64,000 nucleotides of DNA from Thermoplasmatota archaeon (GTDB lineage: Archaea > Thermoplasmatota > Poseidoniia > Poseidoniales > Thalassarchaeaceae). Both the position numbers and the translations under genes were made by a program. The DNA lies in assembly GCA_030828405.1 (NCBI GenBank), contig JAURCP010000005.1, forward strand, positions 18,945 to 82,944, in the 5' to 3' direction. Below, in pieces: positions 1,931 to 41,791 of the stretch. The notes beneath the pieces were generated by a model. That model made no database searches. It had not been told where the DNA came from and worked only from the letters and a program-made list of their open reading frames with translations. Positions within the stretch are counted from its first letter, which is position 1, and every line of letters starts with the position of its first letter.

Positions 1931-1962
1931 TTGACAACCAACTATGAGATATTAAGCACCTA

Positions 1963-3093: not shown

Positions 3094-3217
3094 TGAACCG
3101 AGCCCCCTTATGTATGTGCGACATGAAATACTGCATTAAGTAACTCCCTCATAGGGATTCAGAAATCACGATATTCGATAGTGTTTTATGACCTAGAATA
3201 AACATTAGTAGGGCTGA

Positions 3218-3303
3218 TGGCGCCGAGAGGGAGATTTGAACTCCCGAGGGAAAATCCCACATGATTTCCAGTCATGCGCAATACCAGGCTATGCGACCTC
3301 GGC
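3218..3303 (-). tRNA. tRNA-Ser(GGA): tRNA-Ser (anticodon GGA), class II with long variable arm, CCA encoded
   Basis: The reverse complement GCCGAGGTCGCATAGCCTGGTATTGCGCATGACTGGAAATCATGTGGGATTTTCCCTCGGGAGTTCAAATCTCCCTCTCGGCGCCA folds as a cloverleaf. Acceptor is GCCGAGG/TCTCGGC with one G-U pair. Anticodon stem is CATGA/TCATG with loop CTGGAAA. The variable arm is GGG-ATTTT-CCC and the T arm is GGGAG-TTCAAAT-CTCCC. Confidence 0.9.
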
Positions 3304-3411: not shown

Positions 3412-3486
3412 GCCACTGTGGCTTAGGGGTATAGCATCCCATTGGTAATGGGAAGGTCGGGAGTTCAATTCTCCCCAGTGGCTCCA
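3412..3486 (+). tRNA. tRNA-Thr(GGT): tRNA-Thr (anticodon GGT), CCA encoded
   Basis: GCCACTGTGGCTTAGGGGTATAGCATCCCATTGGTAATGGGAAGGTCGGGAGTTCAATTCTCCCCAGTGGCTCCA. Acceptor is GCCACTG/CAGTGGC. Anticodon stem is TCCCA/TGGGA with loop TTGGTAA. T arm is GGGAG-TTCAATT-CTCCC. A TTAAAT box at 3381-3386 lies 26-31 nt upstream and is a possible TATA box. Confidence 0.9.
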
Positions 3487-19058: not shown

Positions 19059-22000
19059 TTGGCTTTGACACATAACCAATATGCCGTTGCAGCCATTGCT
19101 GCAACCTTGATTTTAGCAGGATTTTACACGATCATTGGAGCCGGTTTAGCTACAGTTTCTGGATGGGAAGATGGTTCAGTAGACATAGAAACTTCTGATA
19201 ATGAAATTCACATAGAAGGTAAAGATACAGACGGTGATGGTTTACCTGACAGAATGGAGCAGACACTTTACGGTACTGATTGGAGACTCTCAGATACAGA
19301 TAATGATGGTTTAGAAGATGGATGGGAGATTGACAATGGCTTAGATCCATTAGATAGTGGTGAAGCCGCTGAACCTGATCCACAAACTACTAATCCGGAT
19401 GAGAACGATGAAAATACTGAGTTAAATGAAACATTCCCTAATCCTGATAATGGCCCATTTGGAGACCCAGATAGAGATGGGCTAATCAATGTGGATGAGG
19501 CAGCACTTGGTACAAATCCAAACTTACAAGATTCTGACGGAGATGGGTTAAATGACCGTTGGGAATCTCTCTATACTTACACTGTAGAGACACCTCAAGG
19601 GCCAATTAAACTTCTTGACCCTCTCGATGGGAATTGGGATTGCTACATTTTGACCCCTGAAGTCAAGGCACAAATCAAGGCAGATATTGGAGCCAGTACA
19701 TTTGATGAAATGGGTAATCAATTCGGCCATTCTTGCGATGCATTATTAGATTTGGAACAACCTGAACCAGATAGTCTCAGAAATTATGTAGAAGAAAGAT
19801 ATGATACTAATCCATTGGAAGAAGATAGTGATGGTGACTTGATTGCTGATAGATATGAAATAGCATTCGGTAACATCGATCTTTCAGTCCATTGTGGAGT
19901 GGTACAATTTGGTACATTGACATTACAGGCACCATATCACGAATACATGAGCGGCCCTGGAGATATGACTTGGTTTGAGGAAGATATGGATGGCGATGGA
20001 CGCCTCAACGGCCCTGGAGATTGGGATTCTGATGGCGATGGAATGCCCGATGGGTACGAATATTGTTATGCACTAGATCAAGAAAGTAAGAGATTCCTTA
20101 ATCCTGCTAATGCAACAGATGCCTATGGCGATAGGGATGAAGACGGTCTAAATAATGTAGAAGAGTATGAAGTCGCATACACATGGGGTCCTGAAAATTT
20201 CACTAGCCCATTAATGTCTGATACTGATAATGATGGCATGCCTGATGGTTGGGAGCATTTGAATGGAATACACCCTAATGACGATGGCGCTAATGCTTTA
20301 GAAGACCCCGATTTTGATGGGTATGATTCTGATGGTGATGGCGGGGTTCGTTATGACGATCTTGTAGGGGTGAGTACTGTTCATTTGATTTCCGTAGAAT
20401 TGGGGGAATATGTCCCAGTCAATAAAACAATTCTCTGGGTCAGAACAGTTCAAAACAGTGTTTATGTAAATATTCCTGTGAAAACACAAACCGAAGGCTG
20501 GGTTTATGAGATTAATGTTGATGTTGGTGATGAGGTACTTACTAGGACTCAAGATTTAGCTATTATTGTAGAACAGGATGAAAGGTTCACAAACTTAGAT
20601 GAGTATAACGCTAGAGATAGAGATGGAGATGGTATTACTGACGGAAGGTCGACAAATCCTCTCGTAGCTGACACAGACAATGACGGGCTAATTGATGGAA
20701 TAGAGGTTATTGGTTGGACAATCAGAGTCGTTGACAATGGTGTCAAAGACGTATTAGTTCGTAGCGACCCTGGTGTATTTGATACAGATAGTGACGGTCT
20801 TTCTGATGCAGTTGAATATTATGAAACGTTTACTAATGCTACGGATAGAGATACTGATAGCGACGGTTTGGAAGATTTTACTGAAGCCGTGGATGGATTC
20901 TACTGGAATGTCACAGAAAAATATTTCACTAATGCTTCTTCATTTGATACAGATAATGATGGATTAGCAGACGGAGAAGAAGTGGTAGATGGACAGGATC
21001 AGTACATCACTCATGGTAATAATGCAGACAGCGATGGTGATGGATTAGATGATGGTGGAGAAGTATTATTCATTCCACGACCGTGGCAAGCAGCTACCAA
21101 TCCGTTGATTAATGATACAGATGAAGACGGACAACCCGATGGATGGGAAATGCAAGTATTTTCAATACAACAGAATACTAATAGTCACAGCTTGTGGATT
21201 AGTAGTACTAATTGGCTTCCACCTGGATGTGATAATATGTTTGAATGTGGGTTAGGACCGGGCGGTTGGGTCTGGACAAATTATGTCCAAGGTTTCTCTA
21301 CATCTGGAGATAGAGATGGTGATGGAGTAATGGACCCGAAATATTTCCTTCATGAAATGAATCTATCAGGTTTTGTAATTCCTAATGATGGAAGATGGGC
21401 TTTAGATCCGGCTTATGGTTCTATGACAGATAATATATTTGACATTGACAATGATACTCTAATGAATCAACTAGAAGCACCTGACAGGTGGAATACTAAT
21501 CCTGTTAATGACGATACTGATGGCGATAAACTTCCAGATGGATGGGAAGTTTTCTATTCGGGAGAAGCAATTTCTTTAGGTATAGTAGACAATAATTCAC
21601 TGAATGCATTAGGTGCACGAGGACCAATGGATCCTGCAATGATTGACTCTGATTTAGACGGTGTGGATGACGGACAGGAAGACTTTGATAGAGACGGACT
21701 AAATCGTACAAATCTGTTGTACCGTTATTGCCCGGGTTGGGACGATCCTCAAAATGCAGAGTGCCACATAGATCCAATGGGAGATTATGGAAAAAGGTTC
21801 TATGATGACCTTGAAAATTATACTAACTTCGAAGAAATGCAAAATGGAACAAGCCCAATTTTGAATGATACTGACGGTGATCAGTGGTTCGATGGCTCAG
21901 AAGTTTTCCACCAAGATCAAGATGGAGATGGAATGTGGGCAGGATGGGAATATTTCTTCGACTTTGATCCATTCGATCCTGCAGATGCAAATATCGATTC

Positions 22001-22106
22001 TGACGGTGATGGTTCTCTGAATAAATGTGAGAATAAATGGAATACTAATCCAAAGGATCCTGTGAGCTTCCCCAGTCAGGGTGAATTATGCAATCAATTT
22101 GAGTGA
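19059..22106 (+). CDS. thrombospondin type-3 (TSP3) calcium-binding repeat protein, N-terminally membrane-anchored (1015 aa)
   Basis: N-terminal hydrophobic helix AVAAIAATLILAGFYTIIGAGLA. Dozens of DxDxDG-type loops are present (DTDGDGLPD, DTDNDGLEDGWE, DSDGDGLNDRWE, DTDNDGMPDGWE, DSDGDGLDDGGE). It needs a non-ATG (TTG) start. Confidence 0.85.
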   Translation: MALTHNQYAVAAIAATLILAGFYTIIGAGLATVSGWEDGSVDIETSDNEIHIEGKDTDGDGLPDRMEQTLYGTDWRLSDTDNDGLEDGWEIDNGLDPLDSGEAAEPDPQTTNPDENDENTELNETFPNPDNGPFGDPDRDGLINVDEAALGTNPNLQDSDGDGLNDRWESLYTYTVETPQGPIKLLDPLDGNWDCYILTPEVKAQIKADIGASTFDEMGNQFGHSCDALLDLEQPEPDSLRNYVEERYDTNPLEEDSDGDLIADRYEIAFGNIDLSVHCGVVQFGTLTLQAPYHEYMSGPGDMTWFEEDMDGDGRLNGPGDWDSDGDGMPDGYEYCYALDQESKRFLNPANATDAYGDRDEDGLNNVEEYEVAYTWGPENFTSPLMSDTDNDGMPDGWEHLNGIHPNDDGANALEDPDFDGYDSDGDGGVRYDDLVGVSTVHLISVELGEYVPVNKTILWVRTVQNSVYVNIPVKTQTEGWVYEINVDVGDEVLTRTQDLAIIVEQDERFTNLDEYNARDRDGDGITDGRSTNPLVADTDNDGLIDGIEVIGWTIRVVDNGVKDVLVRSDPGVFDTDSDGLSDAVEYYETFTNATDRDTDSDGLEDFTEAVDGFYWNVTEKYFTNASSFDTDNDGLADGEEVVDGQDQYITHGNNADSDGDGLDDGGEVLFIPRPWQAATNPLINDTDEDGQPDGWEMQVFSIQQNTNSHSLWISSTNWLPPGCDNMFECGLGPGGWVWTNYVQGFSTSGDRDGDGVMDPKYFLHEMNLSGFVIPNDGRWALDPAYGSMTDNIFDIDNDTLMNQLEAPDRWNTNPVNDDTDGDKLPDGWEVFYSGEAISLGIVDNNSLNALGARGPMDPAMIDSDLDGVDDGQEDFDRDGLNRTNLLYRYCPGWDDPQNAECHIDPMGDYGKRFYDDLENYTNFEEMQNGTSPILNDTDGDQWFDGSEVFHQDQDGDGMWAGWEYFFDFDPFDPADANIDSDGDGSLNKCENKWNTNPKDPVSFPSQGELCNQFE

Positions 22107-26577: not shown

Positions 26578-29500
26578 ATGAACGATGATAATAATGCGAC
26601 AAAGGGAGGTTTTTCAAATAAGAATTTACTCCCAGTCCCTGCTGTACTAGCAACTTTGATGGTACTTTTCTTTGGGACTGATTTTGTTGCTAATGGTGGA
26701 ATTGAGAACGACGGATATGCTGACCTCCTGATCCTACCGGTTATCGCTGCTTTTGCCGCGTTTATCGGTAGAATCGTTTTGGATCAATCGTCAAAAAGTA
26801 ATTTGATTATTATTCTTAGTTCTTTGTCCGCGATTATATTTTCCTTGTTAGCGCCAGAGTTTACTCCAATAGTACCTATGGAAGGATTTACGTTCGCTTT
26901 CGTTTTTGTTTCTACTATTTTCTTATACAAAAATAATTGGAATGAGGAATCATCAATTTTACTTTCAGTGGTACTTGGTTTCCATCTAGCAATTTCTTTT
27001 GCAACTAGATATACTCTTGACGAATCTTCATGGAGTGGAAGTCCAGATGAATTAGTTGATTTAATTAGAGGCTCTATTGCTTCTGTTTTCTTCGCTTTCT
27101 GGATTGCATCAATCACATTGGGAATACTTGTTACTTTAGCAATTAGAGGTAGGGTGTCAAATCCAGGGCAAGGGCCATGGTTCCGAGACCTCCCTTCTGT
27201 AATGCCTCAAGCCGGTTTAATCACTGCAGGAATTATATTTTTAATCAACTTAATTCCATTAATTTGGCTGAGCACCATAGATGATGTCAATTCATATAAC
27301 AATCATCACTACTTGGGCTCAGTTTGGGCATTATTTACTTCAATAGTAGTTCTTTTCGTTTCTTTTTGTAATTCAGAAAGATGGCATGTATTGGGTACAG
27401 TTGTTGCCCTAAATTGGTTAATGTATACTTTGGCTCATTTACAAGAGATTGGAAATGAATTACCACTTTCAACTTTGAATGGTGATGACAACGTCAGTAT
27501 GTTCACCTGGTTCTTGCTAGTTTTCTGGCTTAATGTAGGGGCAATGATGGTAGCTGGTCGTGGTATGTTCGGAGATATTTCTCCTCGTAGAGAACATTCA
27601 GATTTCCGTAAATGGTGGAATCAAAACTCTTACGGTATTATGATAGGTTCAGCACTAATTATTGGTTTAGCAGTTCGAACAGGTTGGAATGTTCTACCTG
27701 CAATGAATGCATCTGGTACTGGACTATGGGATATGTCAGGAGGATCTGATCCATGGTACATGAAACGTGTAGTAGATTATGTCGTATACCAAAAGAGCCA
27801 TCTGATTATTGACGCAGATAGAGCTTACCCGATGGTAGCAATCAATCCTAGACCACCACTATTCTCATGGTCTTTAGCACTTGGAGGACTTTTCCTTTCT
27901 TGGTTATCTGGGATGTCTTTGGAAACCTCTGTGTGGTGGAGCGTAGCCTCTTTACCTGCAATTTTTGGAGCATTAATTGTGTTACCAATTGCTGGTCTTG
28001 CTAGGAAATTACACAGTAACATGGCAGGAATAGTTGCAGCCTGGCTAATCGCATTAATGCCTGGCCATATCGGCCATTCGACATTCGGACTTGCCGATCA
28101 CGACGCATTCGCAATGCTGTTCTTAGCAATAGCATTTTACTATTGGGTCAAGGCCATGGATGAACTGAAGAATGAGAGATTATTCAAAACACCAAGTCTA
28201 AGCCCTCTCTACATTATTGCAGGTATTAGACAAATGTGGTCAACAAATCCTGTAGTTATGTCTAATGCTACTTTATCAGGTGTATCTTTCGCTGTTGTAG
28301 CTTTAGGGTGGAAAGGTTTCGTTTATGGTCCAGGAATTTTATTCATTGCTTTCGCATTCCAGATATTTTTCAATATGTTCCGTAGAAGGGACAGCCTTCC
28401 AATTACTGCAGCATCTTTGCAAATGATGCTTACTGCATTTGTAATCCCATTGCCTTTCTATTGCTGGCCTGGACTAAGTTTATTGTTCGACCCTAGTGGA
28501 TTCCAACCTATGTTTTACATTATTGGTTTCACGCTAGCTTTGGGTTGGATTTCTTCATCCTATCGAGATAAACCTTGGTTATTGGTTCTAGGCAGCACTA
28601 CTGTATTAATGGGGTCAATTTTGCTTGTATTATATATTTTACAACAGGCAAACATCTATGATGGGTGGGATGTTTTATTCACTGGAGGATTCTATTTCTC
28701 AAAGAATAAAATATTCGGAACCATTGGAGAGGCTCAGGCACCTAGTAGAGGTGTTTTATTCGCTTCTTATGGTCCAATCGTTTCACTAATTGCAATATTT
28801 GTTGCTGTAATGTTGTTGTGGAGAGGCGCAAGAAAAGAAAAACAAAGCCATATCCTCTTGGGATTATGGGTTTTAATTGCTATTTACATGGCTTGGTCTG
28901 CTGGAAGATTCATCTTCAACGCAACACCAGCAATTTCGGTAGTTGGAGGAATTGGTATTGCTATGATGTGGAATTATGCTAACTTCTCAGGATTCCTCAA
29001 GGAATGGAGAAAGTCTGGTATTTCAACACCAAGGTCACGTTTCTGGGCCAATTGGAAAGCATCGAGAAGACACCCTGGAGTTCCTGCTTTGATGATGGTA
29101 TTGATGCTGGTTTGTTCTCAGCACATGACATATGGAATTGATTCAGGAATTCCTCGCGGTGAACAATCTGCATCCGATGTCGATCAAACAATTCATGATA
29201 TAACTCCTGATATATTCAGACAGGAAGTTCTAGGGTTTTCATTATTAAATAGCGAGAACTATGATGCGAACGGTGATTTATGGTATATGGGAACATTCGG
29301 ACCCGGTTTTAATTCAGGATCATGGAATTTAGCTTATGAATGGCTATCTGAACAAGATACTGAAGTCAGCTTTTCTGAACGTCCTGCTTTCGTATCATGG
29401 TGGGATTATGGTTTTCAGGCGCTTGCTCAGGGTGAGCACCCTACGGTAGCAGATAACTTCCAGTCAGGGATACCTAATAGCGGTGCTATGTTACTTTCTG

Positions 29501-32500
29501 CTAGTCAAGAAGATACCGTTTCCCTATTCATTACCACTTTAGCCCAAGGAGATCGTAGGTCTAATGCTCCATCTGGATTTACTGATGATTTCAGAAATTT
29601 ACTCTTGGACGGGCACATGGATGATTCACAACTAAGCGAATTTGATAAAATTATGAGTCTTGGTATGGGTGATTCAAAAATAGTACTTGATCGCTCTATG
29701 TCTGTAGTAGCAGTGGATGGTGAACATGAATTATTACGAGGATTCCATTTAGAATCTAACGGTCTACCTAGTGAATCCGAAGTTTGGGTTGTTTTAGAAG
29801 ACGGGGAGATGATTGTTGATGGATTATCTAACGAAGAATCAGCAATTGATAGCTTCAATGATGCTAGAAACTCAGTTTCAGAATTAGATAGGTATGAAAA
29901 AGGCGCAAACAAAGGTGAATTAATAATTCAGTATTACGATATTTCTGGATACAGATATACTCCTGATTTGATTGAAGACTTTGACGATGTATCTACTGGA
30001 TTGCACAGAGTTAATGCAAAGTTAGCATTAAGCCGTGCTTTACTATTAGAGATATTCAATTCCGAAGAAATTAACGATTTATACCACGATATGTCAACTA
30101 AACTTGTGTATGAAGTCCAAGATTATGAAGGAGTTCTTGGAGAAACAATTTCTAGAAATAATGAAATCAGATATTTCGCAGTTGATAATCGTCTTTATCC
30201 CCTAGGTGGCCAGTATTACGAAGACTATGGTTATCACCAAGGTCAAACTACTGGAATTTTCCATGCACCTACTTCACTGTCTGGTTTAGATACTGAAACT
30301 TACATCTCATCCGTTTATCAAACGCAGAGGGGGGACGGCCCCATTATTCCTAGAACCGGTGAGGAATATGAAAGTGAATATCTAAACGATGTTATTCGTC
30401 AACAATCTGGTGCATTAACAGATGTAAATGAAATGATTAGAATGGTTGATATCGACTACCAACACCAGCCTGAGTTCTTCGATACTATGGTTGCTAGAAT
30501 TTATGTAGGATATGGAAGCTCTACCTTAGGTTTACCTGGTGAAGCAGAACAACCAGCGCCTCATTTCTACACCTCCGGGGCCCCTGGTTCATACCTAGAG
30601 AATGCATATCCACTCCCAGGTGCTATGATGAATCACCTAGTTCTTTCAAATTGGTATACTCCTGACTGTGAAACTGATGAGAACGGCACCCAATTAGATT
30701 CAGAATGTGAAAATCTGGGTATAGGAAGTGCTAATACCCAAGTCAAAGTCATGAAATATTACAGTGGTGCCACTATAGAAGGAAAAGTGGAACTAGAGGG
30801 GATAGGTCCTGTGCCCAATGCTAGGCTTCTAATTGAAAGAGATGCATTTAGTGGTGATGAAGTAGAAATAGATGGCAAGGTTACAGATAGGGACCAAAGA
30901 ACTTACTGGATTCCAATAGGAACTGCAGATGCAGATTCAAACGGTGATTTCAGTTTCTTAGCACCTTCGGGAAAGATTCGCGTTTCTGCATTTTATGGAG
31001 AATCCGATCTTGAAGTAGCAAGAACTCAAATAATGACCTCAAATGTAGGTCAATCTTTGGGAGATATTTTCGAGACTGAAACTACTGGTGTACGTACTCT
31101 AAATCCAATTACTGGTATATTGGGCAATGTGTCGGGATCAACTTGGCTTTCAGAAACCATAGTGAATATTTCTGGAGAAGATGGTCACAGTAACGGTGAA
31201 TCAATTATCCCTGTATCTATTTCTGTCAGCCCGGCTTCCTCGATAGGAAGACTAGTTTGGTCTGGTTCAGAAGTATTTTCAGGTAACTCTCTTGAAGATG
31301 CTACCATTGAACTTTCACCTTCTTGGGATTCTATAGTGACATCACCATATTTGATTTCAACATCAAATGGATCGATAATGGGTGATGATTTGAGGTTTGA
31401 TGGTACTGGTGAGGTTACCTTTACCGGAGAAGGTGATGTGATTACATCAACCATAGCAACAATTTCTGATTTCACTGGAAATTACACTCAAACCATATTC
31501 AATAACTACAGCATAACTGGAGAAGGTGAATTTGCAGGTAAAGGAATTATTGATGGAATTATCAATGACGATTTCGAGAATATTGTTGACTGTGATGTTA
31601 ATGAAACCATGCCTGAAAATAATAGTTTGTGTATGCAATCTGATGGGAAATATCTTCTCGATGGAATTGTAAATGCAAGCGGACTTTTCACAGCAGATGG
31701 AGTAGCATCATTTACACAAAAGCTAGTCCAATCAACTCTAATTGGTTCAGGAGTATTTTCAACAGATACATCTAATAAAAATTTGAGTAGTTATGGTACA
31801 ATCAACGCAACTGGCTCATTCTCGGGAATGGGGATATTCAGTGGCGTAATGGTTCAGCCAGGTACATTCCATGTAGTAGATGCAATCCCTGGTTCTTATG
31901 ACGTTGCAGTAATTTTCAGCGACAATACACGCGTAGAAATTGATGATGGGTTCTTCATCTCTCAAACTCTTTCTAGTACCCCAACAGATATAGACATCAA
32001 TGGTGGATTAATTTCAGGAATATTGATAGATGAATCAGGGAACTACCTTGATTCTCATGTTCTTCTTCAATCCGCTGACGGTTCTTCTAATGTAGAAAAT
32101 ATTGGTGATTGTGAAGTTGTTAAATATGCGCCGTGCAATATTCATCCAGAATTAACTTATGAAAATGATTTACTTACTGGTTCTAAGATTGAGTTCGGTC
32201 CAATTATGCCGGGTTCATACATTGCATCAATCGATATCGATGGAGATAATTTCCCAGAAACTTCGTTGGAGTTCACAGTAGATTCTAATGCGGAATCATC
32301 AATTATTCTTCCTTCTCCAATGCCACTTACTACGGATCTTACATTCCAACTAATTAATCCAGATAATGGCACTGATAATCTTGTAGAAGGACTTGATTTA
32401 ACCTTTAATCAGAAGAATGGTTCAGGGTCTTCAGTAGATTCGGAATATGATAATTTATCGGGTCATTATTATGTCGAGTTAACTCCTGGGACTTGGATTT

Positions 32501-34668
32501 TAAACTACACATTATCCGCAACCGAACAATTATGGGAAGAAATTGAAGTTGTAGCTAATTCTGACTTTACAGACATATTTAGTTTCTATACAAGTCAGAC
32601 TGTAAATGGTACTCTATACTATGATGAAAATATTCAATCAGACACTATCGATACAGATAAAACATTAGATTTCGTATCCATTGATTTCTATTGGGATGAT
32701 TTTAGCACAACAGTTGAAACTTCATCAGATGGTACATTCAGTATTGTTTTGCCTGTAGGCTCTGAAGTTGATGCAATTGCTCAATTAGGTGTGGATTTGA
32801 AGTTAGTAAATGGTACGAAATTTACAGTTGAAGAAAATATGGATAAGATTACGATGGTTGCTCGCCCGGGGCAAGCAATTGATGGAGCAGTAAGTGTAAA
32901 TCGAGAAAACAACCTATTCAATTCAGAGATTGGTGGTTGGGAGCCTGTTACAGTAATAGCAGAGAGTGATGAATATGATGTCACATGGCGTTCAGAAACA
33001 GATGATGGTGGTTTCTTTACTATGGTTTTACCTAAGGGCGAATGGGAATTCACAGTTTTATCTGATGAAATTACTTCAGGAACCAATACCACAAATGTAG
33101 ATAATAACAATAATACAATTGAAGTAATAATCTATCCAGATGATTCAATATTAACTATAGATTTCTTCCTAGATAATTCTGCAGATAATAATATGTCTAA
33201 CGGTACTCCAGTAACTTATGATTTCAGTTTATTATCTTTAGTTGACGGAATTGACTACCATATCAATTCCACTTCAAGCAATTGGACTGATGAAGGAATT
33301 GCCCAAGTATCAATAGAACCAGGAATTTATAGAGTATCTGTAGATATTGCAGATCCTAACTCCGGAGATTTATTCGGAACTAGAATAATGAGTGGAGATG
33401 TTGATGTCAGAGTAGGAATTGACTCAACAGATATTACAAGAAGTATTGGATTTGATCCTGAATGGAGAGTAGAAATGTCATTTACCAATGAAAGTGGAGG
33501 TGAGTTGTCTGAACAATTAGTTAGATTCACTAATGTTGAAAATGGCTGGGTTCTTTCTCGAACTACCGACTCCAATGGAAGTATTATTGATTTCTTCCCT
33601 CAGGGTGATTGGATTGCTACTGCCGAGATAGTAAACAATGATATTAAAGAAGGTTTAAGAGATTTGATTTCAGTCTCATCTGAGATATCTTCTGAAAGTT
33701 TAACATTATCTACTAGTCAACTCGCAGAGATTTCATTCAATATTTCAGAAGATTCTTCTAACTCTCCTTTGTCTGGAGTTAGTTTGTTAATGGAGTCTGC
33801 AAGTGACCTAGGTTCTTTCAGTATCGAGGCAACAAATAGTAGTGGATTAACTACAGTTGATGTGGTAGAGGGAGATTGGTTAGTCTCTCTTAACTACACC
33901 AAAGATGGAAAGAGATGGATTGTAGAAAGTTATCCCGTTACTATTTCAGTAGGTGAAAATCATGTTGATTTAACTGCTAACCTTTATGTTGCTTTAACTG
34001 GGACCGTTTTCTGGGATTTGAATAACAACAATGCTTCTAATATTGGTGAAGGAATTTCTGATGTACAGATGACGTTTACAGCTACATCTGATTCAAACGA
34101 TTATTCAATTTCAACGGACAATACGGGGGAATGGGAATTATTCGTACCATACAATACAAGTTGGCAGATTGAAACTATTTATGATGGGTTTGAAAGCATT
34201 AATGAAAGTATATCTGTTTCAGACTCTCCTAACGATGTACAATTGGAATTGGTTGCAGGTTTAGTTGATGTTTATGGAAATATTACTTATGCACTTGGTA
34301 TTTCCAGCATTCCTGTCGAAGATATCGAATTAATGATAATACCTACTGAGGGTCTAGTTAGAGACACAGTAGCAATTGAAATCAACGATAATTGGTCTGG
34401 AAGCTGGTCTACAGTACTGGAACCAGGTCTATGGATAGTAAGTGCTAGCGTACCGAGTCAAGACTTGATAATAATGGGTCTGTTGGATGTTGATGTTACT
34501 GGTAATTCAAATAATTTAGATATGGCACTAACTAGTGGTGGTATTCTTGAAGTTCAAACAGAATGGTTAGATTATGACGGCAACTCACGTAATCTAGGAG
34601 ATATTTCAGATGCGAATTTATTAGTCGATGTTGGATTTGGAATGAAATGGATACAAAGCGATGGATGA
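26578..34668 (+). CDS. aglB: giant AglB/STT3-family oligosaccharyltransferase (2696 aa) with N-terminal multi-TM extension and long C-terminal beta-sandwich array
   Basis: WWDYG catalytic motif at residues 941-945 (nt 29398-29412), followed by PTVADNFQSG. The EL1-type acidic motif GGSDPWYMKR is at about residue 388-397, and GLADHDAF is also present. About 10 hydrophobic helices lie in residues 1-345, before the canonical TM1. After about residue 1000 there are repeated carboxypeptidase-regulatory-like units (e.g. IEGKVELEGIGPVPNARLLIERD...DSNGDFSFLAPSGKIRVSA; LTGTVFWDLNNN...TDNTGEWELFVPYNTSWQIE). Confidence 0.9.
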   Translation: MNDDNNATKGGFSNKNLLPVPAVLATLMVLFFGTDFVANGGIENDGYADLLILPVIAAFAAFIGRIVLDQSSKSNLIIILSSLSAIIFSLLAPEFTPIVPMEGFTFAFVFVSTIFLYKNNWNEESSILLSVVLGFHLAISFATRYTLDESSWSGSPDELVDLIRGSIASVFFAFWIASITLGILVTLAIRGRVSNPGQGPWFRDLPSVMPQAGLITAGIIFLINLIPLIWLSTIDDVNSYNNHHYLGSVWALFTSIVVLFVSFCNSERWHVLGTVVALNWLMYTLAHLQEIGNELPLSTLNGDDNVSMFTWFLLVFWLNVGAMMVAGRGMFGDISPRREHSDFRKWWNQNSYGIMIGSALIIGLAVRTGWNVLPAMNASGTGLWDMSGGSDPWYMKRVVDYVVYQKSHLIIDADRAYPMVAINPRPPLFSWSLALGGLFLSWLSGMSLETSVWWSVASLPAIFGALIVLPIAGLARKLHSNMAGIVAAWLIALMPGHIGHSTFGLADHDAFAMLFLAIAFYYWVKAMDELKNERLFKTPSLSPLYIIAGIRQMWSTNPVVMSNATLSGVSFAVVALGWKGFVYGPGILFIAFAFQIFFNMFRRRDSLPITAASLQMMLTAFVIPLPFYCWPGLSLLFDPSGFQPMFYIIGFTLALGWISSSYRDKPWLLVLGSTTVLMGSILLVLYILQQANIYDGWDVLFTGGFYFSKNKIFGTIGEAQAPSRGVLFASYGPIVSLIAIFVAVMLLWRGARKEKQSHILLGLWVLIAIYMAWSAGRFIFNATPAISVVGGIGIAMMWNYANFSGFLKEWRKSGISTPRSRFWANWKASRRHPGVPALMMVLMLVCSQHMTYGIDSGIPRGEQSASDVDQTIHDITPDIFRQEVLGFSLLNSENYDANGDLWYMGTFGPGFNSGSWNLAYEWLSEQDTEVSFSERPAFVSWWDYGFQALAQGEHPTVADNFQSGIPNSGAMLLSASQEDTVSLFITTLAQGDRRSNAPSGFTDDFRNLLLDGHMDDSQLSEFDKIMSLGMGDSKIVLDRSMSVVAVDGEHELLRGFHLESNGLPSESEVWVVLEDGEMIVDGLSNEESAIDSFNDARNSVSELDRYEKGANKGELIIQYYDISGYRYTPDLIEDFDDVSTGLHRVNAKLALSRALLLEIFNSEEINDLYHDMSTKLVYEVQDYEGVLGETISRNNEIRYFAVDNRLYPLGGQYYEDYGYHQGQTTGIFHAPTSLSGLDTETYISSVYQTQRGDGPIIPRTGEEYESEYLNDVIRQQSGALTDVNEMIRMVDIDYQHQPEFFDTMVARIYVGYGSSTLGLPGEAEQPAPHFYTSGAPGSYLENAYPLPGAMMNHLVLSNWYTPDCETDENGTQLDSECENLGIGSANTQVKVMKYYSGATIEGKVELEGIGPVPNARLLIERDAFSGDEVEIDGKVTDRDQRTYWIPIGTADADSNGDFSFLAPSGKIRVSAFYGESDLEVARTQIMTSNVGQSLGDIFETETTGVRTLNPITGILGNVSGSTWLSETIVNISGEDGHSNGESIIPVSISVSPASSIGRLVWSGSEVFSGNSLEDATIELSPSWDSIVTSPYLISTSNGSIMGDDLRFDGTGEVTFTGEGDVITSTIATISDFTGNYTQTIFNNYSITGEGEFAGKGIIDGIINDDFENIVDCDVNETMPENNSLCMQSDGKYLLDGIVNASGLFTADGVASFTQKLVQSTLIGSGVFSTDTSNKNLSSYGTINATGSFSGMGIFSGVMVQPGTFHVVDAIPGSYDVAVIFSDNTRVEIDDGFFISQTLSSTPTDIDINGGLISGILIDESGNYLDSHVLLQSADGSSNVENIGDCEVVKYAPCNIHPELTYENDLLTGSKIEFGPIMPGSYIASIDIDGDNFPETSLEFTVDSNAESSIILPSPMPLTTDLTFQLINPDNGTDNLVEGLDLTFNQKNGSGSSVDSEYDNLSGHYYVELTPGTWILNYTLSATEQLWEEIEVVANSDFTDIFSFYTSQTVNGTLYYDENIQSDTIDTDKTLDFVSIDFYWDDFSTTVETSSDGTFSIVLPVGSEVDAIAQLGVDLKLVNGTKFTVEENMDKITMVARPGQAIDGAVSVNRENNLFNSEIGGWEPVTVIAESDEYDVTWRSETDDGGFFTMVLPKGEWEFTVLSDEITSGTNTTNVDNNNNTIEVIIYPDDSILTIDFFLDNSADNNMSNGTPVTYDFSLLSLVDGIDYHINSTSSNWTDEGIAQVSIEPGIYRVSVDIADPNSGDLFGTRIMSGDVDVRVGIDSTDITRSIGFDPEWRVEMSFTNESGGELSEQLVRFTNVENGWVLSRTTDSNGSIIDFFPQGDWIATAEIVNNDIKEGLRDLISVSSEISSESLTLSTSQLAEISFNISEDSSNSPLSGVSLLMESASDLGSFSIEATNSSGLTTVDVVEGDWLVSLNYTKDGKRWIVESYPVTISVGENHVDLTANLYVALTGTVFWDLNNNNASNIGEGISDVQMTFTATSDSNDYSISTDNTGEWELFVPYNTSWQIETIYDGFESINESISVSDSPNDVQLELVAGLVDVYGNITYALGISSIPVEDIELMIIPTEGLVRDTVAIEINDNWSGSWSTVLEPGLWIVSASVPSQDLIIMGLLDVDVTGNSNNLDMALTSGGILEVQTEWLDYDGNSRNLGDISDANLLVDVGFGMKWIQSDG

Positions 34669-36085
34669 AACCGGAAGTCTTGATATTTTACTTCCTAACG
34701 GTAATGTTCAATTTTCTGGTGACTTTGAAGTAGAGCAAAGAGGGTTAACCATGGAGTTTACTGCAGGAAGAGGCTTTGATGTTTATCCAGGTCTCAACAC
34801 AAGTTTCGACCTATTATTCAATAGAGTTTCAAATCACGAAATTGAAATTACTACACTGAATGAAACCTCAGGTCACGAAAATTATGTTGGATCATTGGGT
34901 GATGTTTCATTAGTAGTTGATGATACGAATGGATTTGTCCCAGTTAATTTCACTCTCGCTGTAGATTACCTCGGTCATGAATCATATGATGTATTTAACG
35001 TCGGAGGTATTGTTTCTGGAACTGATAGTTCTGAATGGACAGTTCAATTCCATAACGGTACAGGAAACTGGACCACTTCAACGCAATTTGAAGTAGGTTT
35101 AGACAACAGCGTTGATTTCGATAATTTGAATATTCGTGTTATCGCACCTAATCAATCTGTAGCACATTCTTTCGAAGACGGGCATAAGATTACGATCAGT
35201 ATCTCAACTCTAGATGGTTATCAGGCCACACATGATTTGATAGTCAGAGTCCCTCAAATACATGGTTTCGAACTTACAACTCCTATGTCCGAAGTATACG
35301 GAGTCTCTCCAGGAGAATTAATTACTATACCAATAGAGTTTACAAATGCTGGGAATGGCGATGAAAAATATGAGTTTGAGTTTGACGATTCAGAATTGCC
35401 CGATGGTTGGAGTAGGACAGGTCCAACTTCACACACACTCGGTAGCTTCGTTAGTACTTCTCATAGTGTGACTGTTGCTTCTCCAAGCGACGCCATGCCG
35501 AATGAAGAGTTTTCAATTTATGTTACAGTGACAGATAAAGTCGGAAACTCATACGATACTATTGAAATTAAGGTTCGAAGTTCTGAACCAGTATTGAAGA
35601 TTGAAGGTATTCAAGCATTGGGGGGTGGAGAACCAGAAGCTGGTGGTCAAATAACATATATCGCTACAATATCTAATAGTGGATTAGTTGATGCTGAAAA
35701 TGTGCAGCTTAATGCTCAACTTTGTAGGGATGTAGTTTGTAATTCGCCAACTTCTGTCAATGCTACGACGACAATGGGTATACCTGCTGAATCATCCACT
35801 CAGTTCAGTTTCTTGTTTGATTTATCAGATATTCAAGTTGACCAATATTATATCATGCTTGATATAAACTCAACTGGATTTAATGAAGAAAATATTGATG
35901 ATGACTCGTGGCACGTTAGTGATGGTGTAGAACAGGGAGTCATGAATGTAGATGTTAGATCTCCAAGTGTTGATGATGATGAAAATACAGATATTATTGC
36001 TTATATTCTAATTATTGGATTAGTGATAATTGGTCTTTATCTGACTAAAGGTCGTTCCGGCCGCCGTCCAGGCGCACCGTTCTGA
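34661..36085 (+). CDS. CARDB/NEW3-like beta-sandwich protein with C-terminal TM anchor and no signal peptide; may be the detached C-terminus of the AglB ORF
   Basis: 474 aa. ITIPIEFTNAGNGDEKYEFEFDDSELPDGWS and GGQITYIATISNSGLVDAENVQLNA are CARDB-like. The C-terminal TM is IIAYILIIGLVIIGLYL, followed by KGRSGRRPGAPF. The start overlaps the AglB stop within ATGGATGA (34661-34668). Confidence 0.7.
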   Translation: MDETGSLDILLPNGNVQFSGDFEVEQRGLTMEFTAGRGFDVYPGLNTSFDLLFNRVSNHEIEITTLNETSGHENYVGSLGDVSLVVDDTNGFVPVNFTLAVDYLGHESYDVFNVGGIVSGTDSSEWTVQFHNGTGNWTTSTQFEVGLDNSVDFDNLNIRVIAPNQSVAHSFEDGHKITISISTLDGYQATHDLIVRVPQIHGFELTTPMSEVYGVSPGELITIPIEFTNAGNGDEKYEFEFDDSELPDGWSRTGPTSHTLGSFVSTSHSVTVASPSDAMPNEEFSIYVTVTDKVGNSYDTIEIKVRSSEPVLKIEGIQALGGGEPEAGGQITYIATISNSGLVDAENVQLNAQLCRDVVCNSPTSVNATTTMGIPAESSTQFSFLFDLSDIQVDQYYIMLDINSTGFNEENIDDDSWHVSDGVEQGVMNVDVRSPSVDDDENTDIIAYILIIGLVIIGLYLTKGRSGRRPGAPF

Positions 36086-36162: not shown

Positions 36163-37401
36163 ATGAGGTCTTTAGAGAATCTTGATTTACTTCCTGAGCC
36201 CGATGACCACCGTATCTTAACCACGATTGATAATCAAGCATTAGGCTATTCTGGGGAAGATTATGGCCTTACTGACGAGGAAGCCAAACAGCTTCGTTGG
36301 CCACTAGGCCCGATGAGAAAGTCAGAAACTCCTACCGGTGCTATTTTTTTCTCTTTATTGACTCTATTGTTAATTGCTGGTTGGCCATGGGTTAACTCAT
36401 ATCTCGTACCAATTCTTCCTAACTCCGAATGGGCATATGAAGATACAGGAATCAGGCAATTACAATCAGAGGGATATTTTGGTCAAGGAGTACATGTCTG
36501 TATTGTAGATACTGGGATTGATATGAATCATCCTGACTTTTCTCATCAACAATTATTAGGATTCAGAGATTTTGTAGGTGGCAATCATGAGTTAATTAGA
36601 GACATCGGTGAAAGTTCACATGGGACATTAATGGCTGGAATTTTGATATCTAACGGTACTTTCAGAGGGGTTGCTCCAGAAGTAGGTTTGTCAGTTGCTT
36701 TAGCATTGGATTCAGAAGGCACATCTGGTTCAACCGATCGAGTCGCACAAGCTATTAGGTGGTGTCGAATTACTCAGAAAGTAGATATTATTTCATTGAG
36801 CCTTGGTGGGTTCCCTAGTGATTCCACTTCAAATATTAATTCTCAAACTAACCTAGCAGTTCAAGAAGCATTAGATTCAGGGATTTTCGTTGTAGCTGCT
36901 GCAGGAAATACTGGTCTCGATTTAGACATAAATGATGTTTCTCAACCTTCCAGCCTTCCGGGAGTAATTTCGGTAGGAGCTATATCTAAATCGGGATTTG
37001 TATGGGGTAGTAGTGCCTTTGGTTCATCGATTGATCCAGCAACAGGAGATGAAAGGATTTTCCCTAATCAAAAACCAGAAGTTGTGGCTCCAGGCGTTAA
37101 TATCTTCTCTACAGCCTCAAGCACATTATCATCACCATATGCTTACTCTTCTGGGACGAGTGATTCCACAGTATTTGTCACAGGAGCTTTAGCATTGATT
37201 ATTCAACAATGTAGGGATTCCATTGAAGGTTCGGATGGCTATATTGATGAGAATGAAATGAGACTTGTCAAACATGCATTAGCAAGGTCTTCCGATAGGA
37301 GTAACTTTGATTCTGCTAATCACAATTCCCATTCAGGTTATGGCACTTTGGACATAGTCAAGTGGTCTCAGGAAATCTCTTTTACATTTAATGTAGAATA
37401 A
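36163..37401 (+). CDS. membrane-anchored subtilisin-like serine protease (peptidase S8), paralog of 596-1930
   Basis: VCIVDTGIDMNHPD (Asp), SSHGTLMAGILIS (His), AAAGNTG (Asn), SGTSDSTVFVTGALALI (Ser). N-terminal TM is GAIFFSLLTLLLIAGWPW. The SD-like AGGTGGT at 36148-36154 lies 8 nt before the ATG. Confidence 0.85.
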   Translation: MRSLENLDLLPEPDDHRILTTIDNQALGYSGEDYGLTDEEAKQLRWPLGPMRKSETPTGAIFFSLLTLLLIAGWPWVNSYLVPILPNSEWAYEDTGIRQLQSEGYFGQGVHVCIVDTGIDMNHPDFSHQQLLGFRDFVGGNHELIRDIGESSHGTLMAGILISNGTFRGVAPEVGLSVALALDSEGTSGSTDRVAQAIRWCRITQKVDIISLSLGGFPSDSTSNINSQTNLAVQEALDSGIFVVAAAGNTGLDLDINDVSQPSSLPGVISVGAISKSGFVWGSSAFGSSIDPATGDERIFPNQKPEVVAPGVNIFSTASSTLSSPYAYSSGTSDSTVFVTGALALIIQQCRDSIEGSDGYIDENEMRLVKHALARSSDRSNFDSANHNSHSGYGTLDIVKWSQEISFTFNVE

Positions 37402-41724: not shown

Positions 41725-41791
41725 TTTTGTTGACTTGAGTCAGAGACTTCACCACCGAAACTTCTTCTATTGATTCAGATTGCTGTACTAT

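What the first reader, a model, noticed from the sequence alone, without database searches (positions are those of the whole stretch)
26578..34668. 2696-aa AglB/STT3 oligosaccharyltransferase with an extra N-terminal ~10-helix membrane module and a ~1700-aa extracellular beta-sandwich array
Seen: the STT3 catalytic signature WWDYG sits at residues 941-945 (nt 29398-29412). The EL1-type acidic motif (GGSDPWYMKR) appears only at about residue 390, after roughly ten hydrophobic helices (residues 1-345, nt 26578-27612). After about residue 1000 the ORF continues for about 1700 residues of repeated carboxypeptidase-regulatory/SdrD-B-like beta-sandwich units. Established: characterised AglB/PglB/STT3 catalytic subunits are roughly 600-1000 aa, with TM1 at the extreme N-terminus. 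Inference: the N-glycosylation enzyme is fused to a second membrane module of unknown function and to a very long surface stalk. This could couple glycosylation to envelope architecture in a wall-less or S-layer-poor archaeon. I know of no described OST with this architecture.
Basis: partly seen in the sequence, partly recalled or inferred. Interest (0 to 1): 0.78.

Follow-up and report, generated by a model that had tools for sequence, protein, structure and literature searches.

The report
Giant oligosaccharyltransferase of Marine Group II archaea
This is the protein N-glycosylation enzyme (AglB/STT3) of a Marine Group II ocean archaeon, which throughout that lineage is a conserved ~3170-residue giant with an extra 10-helix membrane domain of unknown fold and a long, sugar-site-rich, membrane-tethered surface stalk; in this window a one-base insertion cuts it into two reading frames.

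Summary
The stop codon, however, comes from a single extra A at 34661. Six close relatives lack that base. In 52 related Poseidoniales genomes the gene is one ORF of 3145-3320 aa. In the window this corresponds to 26578..36085, that is the 2696-aa ORF plus the next 474-aa ORF.

Architecture:
- Residues 1-345 form a 10-helix membrane module. It has no sequence or structural relative outside this family and is never found as a separate protein.
- Residues ~351-1389 are a complete STT3/AglB unit with all catalytic motifs invariant and a ~230-aa insertion.
- Residues ~1390-3125 are an acidic array of diverged transthyretin/CnaB-like beta-sandwiches, with twice the N-X-S/T sites expected by chance.
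- The protein ends in a conserved transmembrane anchor with a basic tail ending in Phe.

Every segment is under purifying selection. The architecture occurs in both MGIIa and MGIIb. The Marine Group III ortholog has the array but lacks the N-module.

It needs correcting on the gene end, the start of the array and the missed C-terminal anchor. Databases call these proteins "hypothetical" or "STT3 domain-containing", and I found no paper describing them. Verdict: a new variant of a known kind.

The parts
26578..36085 (+). Whole gene: giant AglB/STT3 oligosaccharyltransferase, 3168 aa once the extra base at 34661 is removed
   Evidence: ORFs 26578..34668 and 34661..36085. Orthologs are single ORFs of 3145-3320 aa. 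The corrected translation is 3168 aa with no internal stop.
26578..27612 (+). N-terminal 10-TM module (residues 1-345), lineage-specific, fold without a match
   Evidence: AF2 gives pLDDT 81, pTM 0.78 and 10 helices. Foldseek against PDB finds nothing (best E 0.5, TM-score <=0.24). The profile against 1.84e9 proteins returns only N-termini of ~3150-3230-aa proteins or fragments. No hit in PDB sequences, Pfam or NCBIfam. Invariant residues are F171, E267, W269, W280, G292, W311, F316 and G332. dN/dS is 0.09-0.12.
27613..29067 (+). STT3 transmembrane domain (residues ~346-830), preceded by a basic cytoplasmic linker at 328-350
   Evidence: Pfam STT3 E 5.7e-16. TIGR04154 matches 355-980. Aligns to A. 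fulgidus AglB-L 3WAJ residues 17-286. dN/dS is 0.02-0.04.
27739..27759 (+). EL1 acidic motif GGSDPWY (D391)
   Evidence: Position. Aligned to GGNDPWY of 3WAJ. Invariant in 15 homologs.
28093..28104 (+). Second acidic motif A-D507-H508-D509
   Evidence: Aligned to NDHH of 3WAJ. D507, H508 and D509 are invariant.
28720..28731 (+). TIXE motif (TIGE, residues 715-718) in the EL5 region
   Evidence: Position. Conserved as TIxEA in every homolog that covers it and in the MGIII relative.
29068..30744 (+). External catalytic domain (residues 831-1389) with a ~230-aa insertion (~985-1200)
   Evidence: AglB_core-like hit at 934-979. The profile matches AglB-S C-terminal domains 3VU0 and 3VGP at E 5e-7, up to about residue 985 only. 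The insertion is shorter in MGIII, where query residues 1026-1142 are unmatched.
29398..29412 (+). WWDYG catalytic signature (residues 941-945)
30247..30273 (+). Candidate DK/MI-type Ser/Thr-pocket motif TTGIFHAPT (residues 1224-1232), following IRYFAVDNRLYP
   Evidence: G, I, F, A, P and T are invariant in alignment A5. Also present in MGIII as NTGILYAPVT. Assigning it to the DK/MI motif is my inference from its position after the conserved beta-strand.
30745..31017 (+). First transthyretin/CarboxypepD_reg-like beta-sandwich (residues 1390-1480); probably equivalent to the AglB-L peripheral domain
   Evidence: AglB_L1 and CarboxypepD_reg hits in orthologs. Predicted all-beta with pLDDT 70-89.
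30745..34660 (+). Beta-sandwich array, part upstream of the frameshift (residues 1390-2694)
   Evidence: Sequon enrichment.
31372..31848 (+). Glycine-patterned segment (residues ~1599-1757, G-x-G-x-F repeats) predicted as unusually long beta-strands
   Evidence: AF2 strands E769-810, E815-832, E861-899 and E910-926 of the model, pLDDT ~80-89. Many invariant Gly.
34661..34661 (+). Single extra A (+1 frameshift) that creates the stop at 34666-34668 and the ATG of the next ORF
   Evidence: blastn against L011, L016, L003 and L004. L085 and L086 carry the undisrupted sequence.
34662..35953 (+). Beta-sandwich array, part downstream of the frameshift (residues ~2695-3125), with CARDB/DUF11/Big_1-like units
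   Evidence: dN/dS is 0.07-0.15.
35993..36043 (+). C-terminal transmembrane anchor (IIAYILIIGLVIIGLYL)
   Evidence: Present in all 52 full-length orthologs.
36044..36082 (+). Conserved basic cytoplasmic tail TKGRSGRRPGAPF ending in Phe
   Evidence: The tail ends ...RRPGAPF or ...RRVSAPF in MGIIb and ...RF or ...PF in more distant members. No other ORF in the window ends this way.

Best explanation
This gene is the AglB (archaeal STT3) oligosaccharyltransferase of a Thalassarchaeaceae (Marine Group IIb) archaeon. Throughout Marine Group II it is a single ~3170-residue polypeptide with about 24 TM helices.

Shown:
- A complete STT3 unit is present, with the EL1 Asp, the D-H-D motif, TIXE and WWDYG all invariant.
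- It is preceded by a 10-helix module found only in this protein family.
- It is followed by ~1735 residues of diverged beta-sandwich domains.
- The protein ends in a conserved TM helix and a basic tail.
- In this window a 1-nt insertion breaks the gene 474 codons before its natural end.

Inferred mechanism:
- The STT3 core transfers a dolichol-phosphate-linked glycan to Asn in N-X-S/T on the outer face of the membrane, as in characterised AglB enzymes.
- An even number of helices with positive-inside loops puts both ends of the N-module in the cytoplasm. The module therefore adds ten helices beside the STT3 bundle. It most likely acts as a built-in accessory membrane subunit, for stabilisation, lipid-carrier handling or docking of partners. 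This would be analogous, not homologous, to the non-catalytic membrane subunits of eukaryotic OST.
- The acidic, sequon-enriched array is probably N-glycosylated itself. Because it is anchored at both ends, it would form a large glycoprotein loop or stalk on the cell surface. This would couple the enzyme physically to the envelope.
For: ORF and motifs:
-.
- STT3 family hits and alignment to 3WAJ, 3VU0 and 3VGP.

Conservation of the fusion:
- Relatives occur in 455 species-representative genomes, and 52 complete single ORFs are 3145-3320 aa with the EL1 motif 375-414 residues from the start.
- Identical-length proteins appear on many independent contigs.
- The architecture is present in MGIIa: P0196, named 'Candidatus Poseidonia sp.', is 82% identical to the 3185-aa P0042 (single ORF in L083).
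- Identity to the window protein is high along the whole length and dN/dS is 0.02-0.15 in every segment.

N-module:
- Ten helices, pLDDT 81.
- No structural, profile or family match.
- Absent from the MGIII ortholog, whose TM1 starts at about residue 45.

Array:
- CarboxypepD_reg in most orthologs.
- Fold matches to CnaB/Ig-type pilins and SlaB.
- 270 acidic against 54 basic residues.
- Sequons average 36.8 against 18.6 expected, z 4.9, over 53 sequences, with 9 positions conserved in at least 80% of them.
- The enrichment is absent from the catalytic domain and, apart from a weaker signal in ORF 19059..22106 (z 2.7), from the other giant ORFs of the window.

C-terminal anchor and tail.

Frameshift.

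Expression: an oligosaccharyltransferase gene was among transcripts enriched when MGIIb genus O1 was active (PMC9723583). Whether that gene is this ortholog was not checked.
Against: - No biochemical data exist for any member.
- The roles proposed for the N-module and the array are inferences from topology, composition and analogy.
- I could not inspect model coordinates or PAE, so packing of the N-module against STT3 is not shown.
- Foldseek is weak on all-helical membrane folds, and no AlphaFold DB library was available, so 'no structural relative' holds only for PDB.
- The external catalytic domain modelled poorly (pLDDT below 50 for residues 831-977 and parts of 1180-1395).
- The DK/MI motif assignment is not verified.
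- TIGR04154 scores far below its cut-off (164 against 450 bits), so the protein is not a member of that curated subfamily.
- I could not check whether these genomes also carry a second, ordinary-sized AglB.
Confidence: 0.72

Rival explanations
1. The frameshift is a real mutation in this strain. The cell then makes a 2696-aa OST lacking the last part of the array and the C-terminal anchor. It may also make a separate 474-aa product from the ATG that the insertion creates, or the gene may be on its way to becoming a pseudogene.
For: The inserted A is not in a homopolymer run. It creates an ATG four bases upstream of the TGA, an overlap typical of coupled ORFs.
Against: Six relatives at 81-96% nucleotide identity lack the base. 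The downstream 1.4 kb has no further stops or indels, and its dN/dS against L011 is 0.15. The lesion is therefore either very recent or an assembly or consensus error. The 474-aa product would have no signal sequence.
Confidence: 0.3
2. The fusion is a delivery device. The array is the real product, an S-layer-like envelope glycoprotein. It is glycosylated in cis by its own OST and then cut free, possibly by the subtilase always encoded immediately downstream. A conventional-sized enzyme is left in the membrane.
For: The array is acidic, sequon-enriched and C-terminally anchored like archaeal S-layer glycoproteins. The fold search includes SlaB. An S8 peptidase gene sits directly downstream in MGIIb and MGIIa loci.
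Against: No cleavage site or conserved linker was identified. The S8 protein has no obvious signal peptide. No known sorting signal such as PGF-CTERM was detected. The synteny may reflect no more than a surface-protein gene neighbourhood.
Confidence: 0.15
3. The N-terminal module has an independent catalytic or transport activity in the same pathway, for example flipping the lipid-linked glycan or recycling the dolichol phosphate carrier. The protein would then be a fused two-step machine.
For: It is a compact, confidently predicted 10-TM bundle. It has invariant polar or aromatic residues E267, W269 and W280 and nearly invariant E123, R164 and E290. It is under purifying selection. From my own knowledge, the archaeal LLO flippase has not been firmly identified.
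Against: No similarity to MOP/Wzx, ABC, GtrA, PAP2 or UppP folds or families appeared in any search. It has no internal repeat of the kind typical of transporters. It is never found alone. It is absent from MGIII, which has the same type of OST.
Confidence: 0.15
4. The STT3 unit is a catalytically dead scaffold and the protein is purely structural.
For: It is very divergent from curated archaeal STT3 models (164 bits against a 450 cut-off).
Against: All metal-binding and substrate-binding motifs are invariant across the family. The STT3 core is the most constrained segment, with dN/dS 0.02-0.04.
Confidence: 0.03
5. The architecture is an assembly chimera that joins unrelated genes at about 27.6 kb and 29.6 kb.
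For: None found.
Against: The same colinear ORF occurs in MAGs, single-cell genomes and long-read assemblies from many studies.
Confidence: 0.01

Closest known systems
AglB-L of Archaeoglobus fulgidus (PDB 3WAJ/5GMY) and archaeal AglB in general
   Same: The STT3 core is shared, with TM1 followed by the EL1 GG(N/S)DPWY motif, the D-x-H/D motif, TIXE and WWDYG. The external central-core unit also aligns. A first peripheral beta-sandwich follows the core, with AglB_L1 hits in orthologs.
   Different: This protein has 345 extra N-terminal residues forming 10 TM helices. It has a ~230-aa insertion between WWDYG and the DK/MI-like motif. It carries ~1650 further residues of beta-sandwiches, a C-terminal TM anchor and a conserved tail. 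The total is 3168 aa against 868 aa.
AglB of Marine Group III archaea (cluster of P0213/P0236; loci L087, L088)
   Same: This is the closest relative outside MGII, with 33-36% identity over the STT3 core. It has the same external-domain motifs and a C-terminal CarboxypepD_reg/SdrD_B-type array.
   Different: It has no N-module: TM1 starts at about residue 45, after a basic segment. Its insertion in the external domain is shorter. Its full length is unknown because the contigs end.
Eukaryotic OST holo-complex (STT3 with ribophorin I/Ost1, OST48/Wbp1, ribophorin II/Swp1, Ost3/6, DAD1/Ost2, Ost4, Ost5/TMEM258)
   Same: By analogy from my own knowledge, the catalytic STT3 is surrounded by extra TM helices. 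It is also accompanied by luminal beta-rich domains held by C-terminal TM anchors.
   Different: In eukaryotes these are separate subunits, whereas here everything is one chain. No sequence or fold similarity to any of those subunits was detected.
NOMO (BOS complex subunit; PDB 9C7V) and Gram-positive pilins/CnaB arrays (BcpA, RrgB, SpaD)
   Same: All are rods of tandem transthyretin/CnaB/Ig-like beta-sandwiches, and NOMO also ends in a single TM helix. NOMO2 gives weak profile hits (E 0.006 and 0.044). The pilins give Foldseek E values of 1e-9 to 1e-6.
   Different: None of these carries an enzyme domain. Global TM-scores are low (0.05-0.12 normalised to the query), so only the domain type is shared.
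Archaeal S-layer glycoproteins (e.g. Haloferax volcanii SLG, Sulfolobus SlaB)
   Same: They share an acidic, N-X-S/T-rich, beta-sandwich-based extracellular region with a C-terminal membrane anchor.
   Different: The array here is covalently fused to the OST. No PGF-CTERM or other recognised sorting signal is present. No evidence of lattice formation was obtained.

Membership tests
STT3/AglB oligosaccharyltransferase (GT-C, Pfam PF02516) | Significant match to the STT3 profile above the curated threshold | tested here: met
   PF02516 scores 59.5 bits against a cut-off of 24.5, E 5.7e-16, over residues 389-650.
STT3/AglB oligosaccharyltransferase | First acidic motif in EL1 (Asp of GG-x-D-P-W-Y) | tested here: met
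   D391 in GGSDPWY aligns to GGNDPWY of 3WAJ and is invariant.
STT3/AglB oligosaccharyltransferase | Second acidic/His motif (DxD / DxH) in the TM domain | tested here: met
   D507-H508-D509 aligns to N-D-H-H of 3WAJ and is invariant.
STT3/AglB oligosaccharyltransferase | TIXE/SVSE motif in EL5 | tested here: met
   TIGE at 715-718. It is conserved in all homologs that cover it and in MGIII.
STT3/AglB oligosaccharyltransferase | WWDYG motif in the external domain | tested here: met
   Residues 941-945, aligned to 3WAJ, 3VU0 and 3VGP.
STT3/AglB oligosaccharyltransferase | DK or MI motif forming the +2 Ser/Thr pocket | tested here: inconclusive
   A family-invariant TTGIFHAPT (1224-1232) follows the IRYFAVDNRLYP strand, at the expected relative position. 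No profile or structural alignment reached it, and the model is low-confidence there.
STT3/AglB oligosaccharyltransferase | Glycan transfer from a lipid carrier to Asn of N-X-S/T | not testable with these tools
   Requires biochemistry or genetics.
NCBIfam TIGR04154 (archaeosortase A-associated archaeal STT3 subfamily) | Score above the curated cut-off | tested here: not met
   164.2 bits against a cut-off of 450. The protein is related to this subfamily but is not a member.
CarboxypepD_reg / transthyretin-like beta-sandwich (PF13620) | Profile match above the gathering score | tested here: inconclusive
   In the window protein the score is 28.5 bits against a cut-off of 32.3, with pieces at 22.7-23.8 bits. 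Among orthologs 17/23 and 19/22 members match, with best E 8e-12 and 3e-11. The fold-level matches are to CnaB-type pilins.
Archaeosortase/exosortase-type C-terminal sorting signals (PGF-CTERM and relatives) | Signature motif followed by a TM helix and a basic cluster, recognised by the NCBIfam models | tested here: not met
   A TM helix and basic tail are present, but there is no PGF-like motif and no NCBIfam sorting-signal hit.
Any known membrane-protein family, for the N-module | Sequence-profile or structural similarity | tested here: not met
   Pfam, NCBIfam, PDB sequences and Foldseek against PDB all gave nothing, and the 1.84e9-protein profile search found only this family. AlphaFold DB was not available.

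The most novel reading that the evidence does not exclude
Marine Group II archaea may have merged a whole glycosylation station into one chain. A new-fold 10-TM domain would supply a pathway step that other archaea provide in trans, such as lipid-linked glycan flipping or carrier handling. The STT3 core would transfer the glycan. The ~1700-residue sequon-rich array, tethered at both ends, would be both a cis-substrate and a main structural element of the cell envelope. The OST would then itself be an envelope-building glycoprotein.
Probability: 0.15. Interest if true: 0.85.

Novelty: new variant of a known kind. Interest (0 to 1): 0.62.

Why it matters
Marine Group II archaea are among the most abundant archaea in the surface ocean and remain uncultured, and their cell envelope is essentially uncharacterised. 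Their only recognisable N-glycosylation enzyme in this locus is three to four times larger than any characterised AglB, PglB or STT3. It carries a membrane domain with no detectable relative and a self-anchored, glycosylation-site-rich surface array.

This gives concrete handles on three questions:
1. How catalytic STT3 subunits acquire accessory membrane and luminal parts. Here this happened by fusion, in eukaryotes by added subunits.
2. What the MGII envelope is made of.
3. What a new 10-TM fold does.

The MGII/MGIII contrast dates the N-module to the MGII stem, while the array is older. There is also a practical point: annotation pipelines split or truncate this gene, as in this window and in long-read assemblies.

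Tried and rejected
- **Chimeric assembly.** Rejected, because the architecture is colinear in 52 complete orthologs.
- **Stand-alone N-module genes.** The only candidate (P0040, 359 aa) ends in translated Nextera adapter at a contig end. All other short hits are fragments.
- **N-module as a duplication of the STT3 TM domain, or as an internally repeated transporter-like fold.** hhalign found nothing.
- **N-module against known families and structures.** Pfam, NCBIfam, PDB sequence profiles and Foldseek against PDB were all negative.
- **Recent tandem repeats in the array.** HMMs built from three individual domains find each other only at E 1e-4 to 0.5, so the array consists of old, diverged domains.
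- **Known C-terminal sorting signal.** None detected.
- **Structure prediction with locus-derived orthologs (alignment A3).** It was redone with database proteins (A5).
- **Independent occurrence of the frameshift allele.** A metagenome scan found only the undisrupted allele.
- **Literature.** Seven searches found no description of this architecture.
- **Not done.** I did not run the viral structure library, which I judged irrelevant.
Full report
**Observation**

The window has an ATG-to-stop ORF at 26578..34668 on the + strand that encodes 2696 aa. WWDYG is at residues 941-945 (nt 29398-29412). GGSDPWYMKR is at residues 388-397.

The STT3 profile does not start at residue 1:
- Pfam STT3 (PF02516) matches residues 389-650 to profile positions 31-253, with E 5.7e-16.
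- NCBIfam TIGR04154 matches residues 355-980 to profile positions 3-576.
- The closest solved structure is Archaeoglobus fulgidus AglB-L (3WAJ). Its residue 17 aligns with residue 360 here.

The STT3 unit therefore starts at about residue 350, and the first ~345 residues lie outside every known profile. The flanking genes are archaeal: CDP-archaeol synthase, purD and archease.

**The ORF end is not the gene end**

A genome scan found relatives in 455 species-representative genomes. The best 80 are Poseidoniales (Marine Group II) MAGs and single-cell genomes, mostly Thalassarchaeaceae, which is MGIIb. In 52 of those loci the ORF is complete and 3145-3320 aa long. The EL1 motif always lies 375-414 residues from the start codon.

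In the window, the 2696-aa ORF plus the next ORF (34661..36085, 474 aa, overlapping by 8 nt) add up to 3170 aa. Nucleotide alignment with four relatives at 81-96% identity shows a single extra A at 34661 in the window: GCGaTGGATG against GCG-TGGATG. Two metagenome contigs at 94-95% identity also lack it. Removing that base gives one 3168-aa ORF.

The segment downstream of the lesion has no other defect, and its dN/dS is 0.07-0.15. The lesion is therefore either an assembly error or a very recent mutation. The sequence alone cannot decide between these.

**Anatomy of the intact protein**

*1. N-module (residues 1-345).*
- AlphaFold2 with a 21-sequence alignment gives a confident model (pLDDT 81, pTM 0.78) with ten TM helices.
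- An even helix count, acidic loops on alternate sides and an Arg/Lys-rich linker at 328-350 are what the sequence shows. They fit an N-in/C-in topology that hands over to STT3 TM1 from the cytoplasm.
- Foldseek against PDB finds nothing (best E 0.5, TM-score at most 0.24).
- A profile search of 1.84 billion representative proteins returns only 88 hits. All are N-termini of ~3150-3230-aa proteins or contig-end fragments.
- The one apparently free-standing copy ends in translated sequencing adapter.
- PDB sequence profiles, Pfam and NCBIfam are all negative.
- hhalign shows no internal repeat and no relation to the STT3 TM domain.
- Invariant residues include F171, E267, W269, W280, G292, W311, F316 and G332. 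dN/dS is 0.09-0.12.

*2. STT3 unit (residues ~351-1389).*
- D391, D507-H508-D509, TIGE 715-718 and WWDYG are present and invariant across the family.
- After the central-core unit, which aligns to 3VU0 and 3VGP, comes a ~230-residue insertion.
- Then follows an invariant IRYFAVDNRLYP...TTGIFHAPT block. I take this block to be the DK/MI-type pocket motif, which is an inference.
- This is the most constrained segment, with dN/dS 0.02-0.04.

*3. Beta-sandwich array (residues ~1390-3125).*
- The window protein gives only sub-threshold CarboxypepD_reg hits.
- Among orthologs the family is hit in 17 of 23 members for residues 1385-2250 and in 19 of 22 members for residues 2251-3125. AglB_L1, DUF4198, Big_1, CARDB and DUF11 are hit occasionally.
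- A model of residues 831-2030 is confident only for ~1400-2010, where it is all-beta.
- Foldseek matches that model to CnaB/Ig-type arrays such as BcpA, RrgB and SpaD, and to SlaB. NOMO2 is a weak sequence-profile hit.
- The domains are old and diverged.
- The region is strongly acidic, with 270 D/E against 54 K/R.
- It carries about twice the N-X-S/T sequons expected from its composition: mean 36.8 against 18.6 over 53 sequences, z 4.9. Nine positions are conserved in at least 80% of the sequences.
- The external catalytic domain is depleted in sequons. Three of the other four giant surface ORFs in the window are not enriched, and ORF 19059..22106 shows a weaker signal, z 2.7.

*4. C-terminal anchor.*
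- A TM helix (nt 35993-36043) and a basic tail ending in Phe are conserved in every full-length ortholog. The tail ends ...RRPGAPF or ...RRVSAPF in MGIIb and ...RF or ...PF in distant members.
- No recognised sorting signal is present.

**Distribution and origin**

Full-length members at 33-51% identity keep the same architecture. Identical-length proteins recur on many independent contigs.

A partial protein annotated as Candidatus Poseidonia sp. (MGIIa) is 82% identical to the 3185-aa P0042, which is a single ORF in L083. Both MGII families therefore have this protein. Gene order is also conserved across this range: purD, giant STT3, S8 peptidase, giant beta-helix protein, AAA/TPR protein.

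Long-read assemblies show the gene broken into frame-shifted pieces. purD and the S8 gene are broken in the same way there, so this is an assembly artefact.

The nearest outgroup is a Marine Group III cluster. It shares the STT3 core at 33-36% identity and has a CarboxypepD_reg array. Its TM1 starts at about residue 45, after a short basic segment. The N-module is thus an MGII-specific addition, while the array predates the MGII/MGIII split.

**Interpretation**

The protein is the lineage's AglB. Catalysis presumably works as in characterised AglB enzymes, which follows from established knowledge of STT3/AglB. The two additions are real, conserved and selected, but their functions are inferred.

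I favour a built-in accessory membrane subunit for the N-module. For the array I favour a glycosylated, doubly anchored surface loop or stalk. The rival readings are scored separately in this report:
- a real split allele in this strain;
- proteolytic release of the array as an envelope glycoprotein;
- an independent pathway activity in the N-module;
- a catalytically dead scaffold;
- an assembly chimera.

**Known or new**

Public records call these proteins 'hypothetical', 'STT3 domain-containing' or 'Stt3/uncharacterized membrane protein'. Seven full-text searches found no paper that describes the architecture. One metatranscriptome study lists an oligosaccharyltransferase among transcripts enriched when MGIIb genus O1 was active (PMC9723583).

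I rate this a new variant of a known kind. It is a bona fide STT3/AglB with a new-fold membrane module and an unusually long, self-anchored array.

Noticed in passing
window 36163-37401, 37501-41724, 41780-44320: An S8 subtilase, a 1407-aa beta-helix/Big_7 surface protein and an HTH-AAA_16-TPR protein follow the giant STT3 gene. The same order appears in MGIIb and MGIIa loci (L001, L002, L083), so this looks like a conserved surface-biogenesis neighbourhood. The subtilase has no obvious signal peptide.
   Followed up: partly
window 31372-31848 (residues ~1599-1757): This segment has G-x-G-x-F(T/S)G-type repeats and many invariant glycines. AlphaFold2 predicts beta-strands up to ~40 residues long here at pLDDT ~80-89. 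That suggests a long beta-ribbon or solenoid-like element rather than an ordinary sandwich domain. No coordinates were available to inspect.
   Followed up: partly
window 36044-36082 and orthologs: The extreme C-terminus is a conserved basic tail that always ends in Phe (...RRPGAPF, ...RRVSAPF, ...SRF, ...KPF). No other ORF in the window ends this way. It might be a recognition or docking motif.
   Followed up: partly
L087 2257-6465 vs L088 9643-13215 (Marine Group III): In L087 the MGIII ortholog is interrupted by one in-frame TGA after residue 757, exactly where the external-domain insertion begins. It then continues in the same frame. In L088 the ORF reads through that point, so this is probably a sequence error or a strain-specific lesion.
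   Followed up: partly
L084 (P0040); also the C-termini of P0001, P0007, P0014: Public metagenome contigs end in untrimmed Nextera adapter. This is translated as ...CLLYTSPSPRD or ...SLIHI and creates false short 'proteins'.
   Followed up: yes
L001, L002: Pilon-polished long-read assemblies fragment the giant gene into 2-7 overlapping frame-shifted calls. They also split purD and the S8 peptidase gene. Gene counts from such assemblies would misreport this locus.
   Followed up: yes
window 22593-24359 (- strand): A 588-aa protein with a signal-like N-terminus and a C-terminal TM helix has no family match. A protein of similar size (555-601 aa) sits in the same position in L001, L002 and L083, next to CarS in L001 and L002 and next to purD in L083.
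   Followed up: no
window 19059-22106: This 1015-aa protein with bacterial TSP3 repeats is the only other large ORF in the window with N-X-S/T enrichment (15 against 7.9 expected, z 2.7).
   Followed up: no
window 3573-10724 and 45315-51035: Two further giant ORFs (2383 and 1906 aa) have signal-peptide-like N-termini. The first ends in a TM helix followed by a poly-acidic tail. Neither is sequon-enriched.
   Followed up: no
window 3218-3303 (-) and 3412-3486 (+): tRNA-Ser(GGA) and tRNA-Thr(GGT) are divergently oriented. They are the only RNA genes detected in the window.
   Followed up: no
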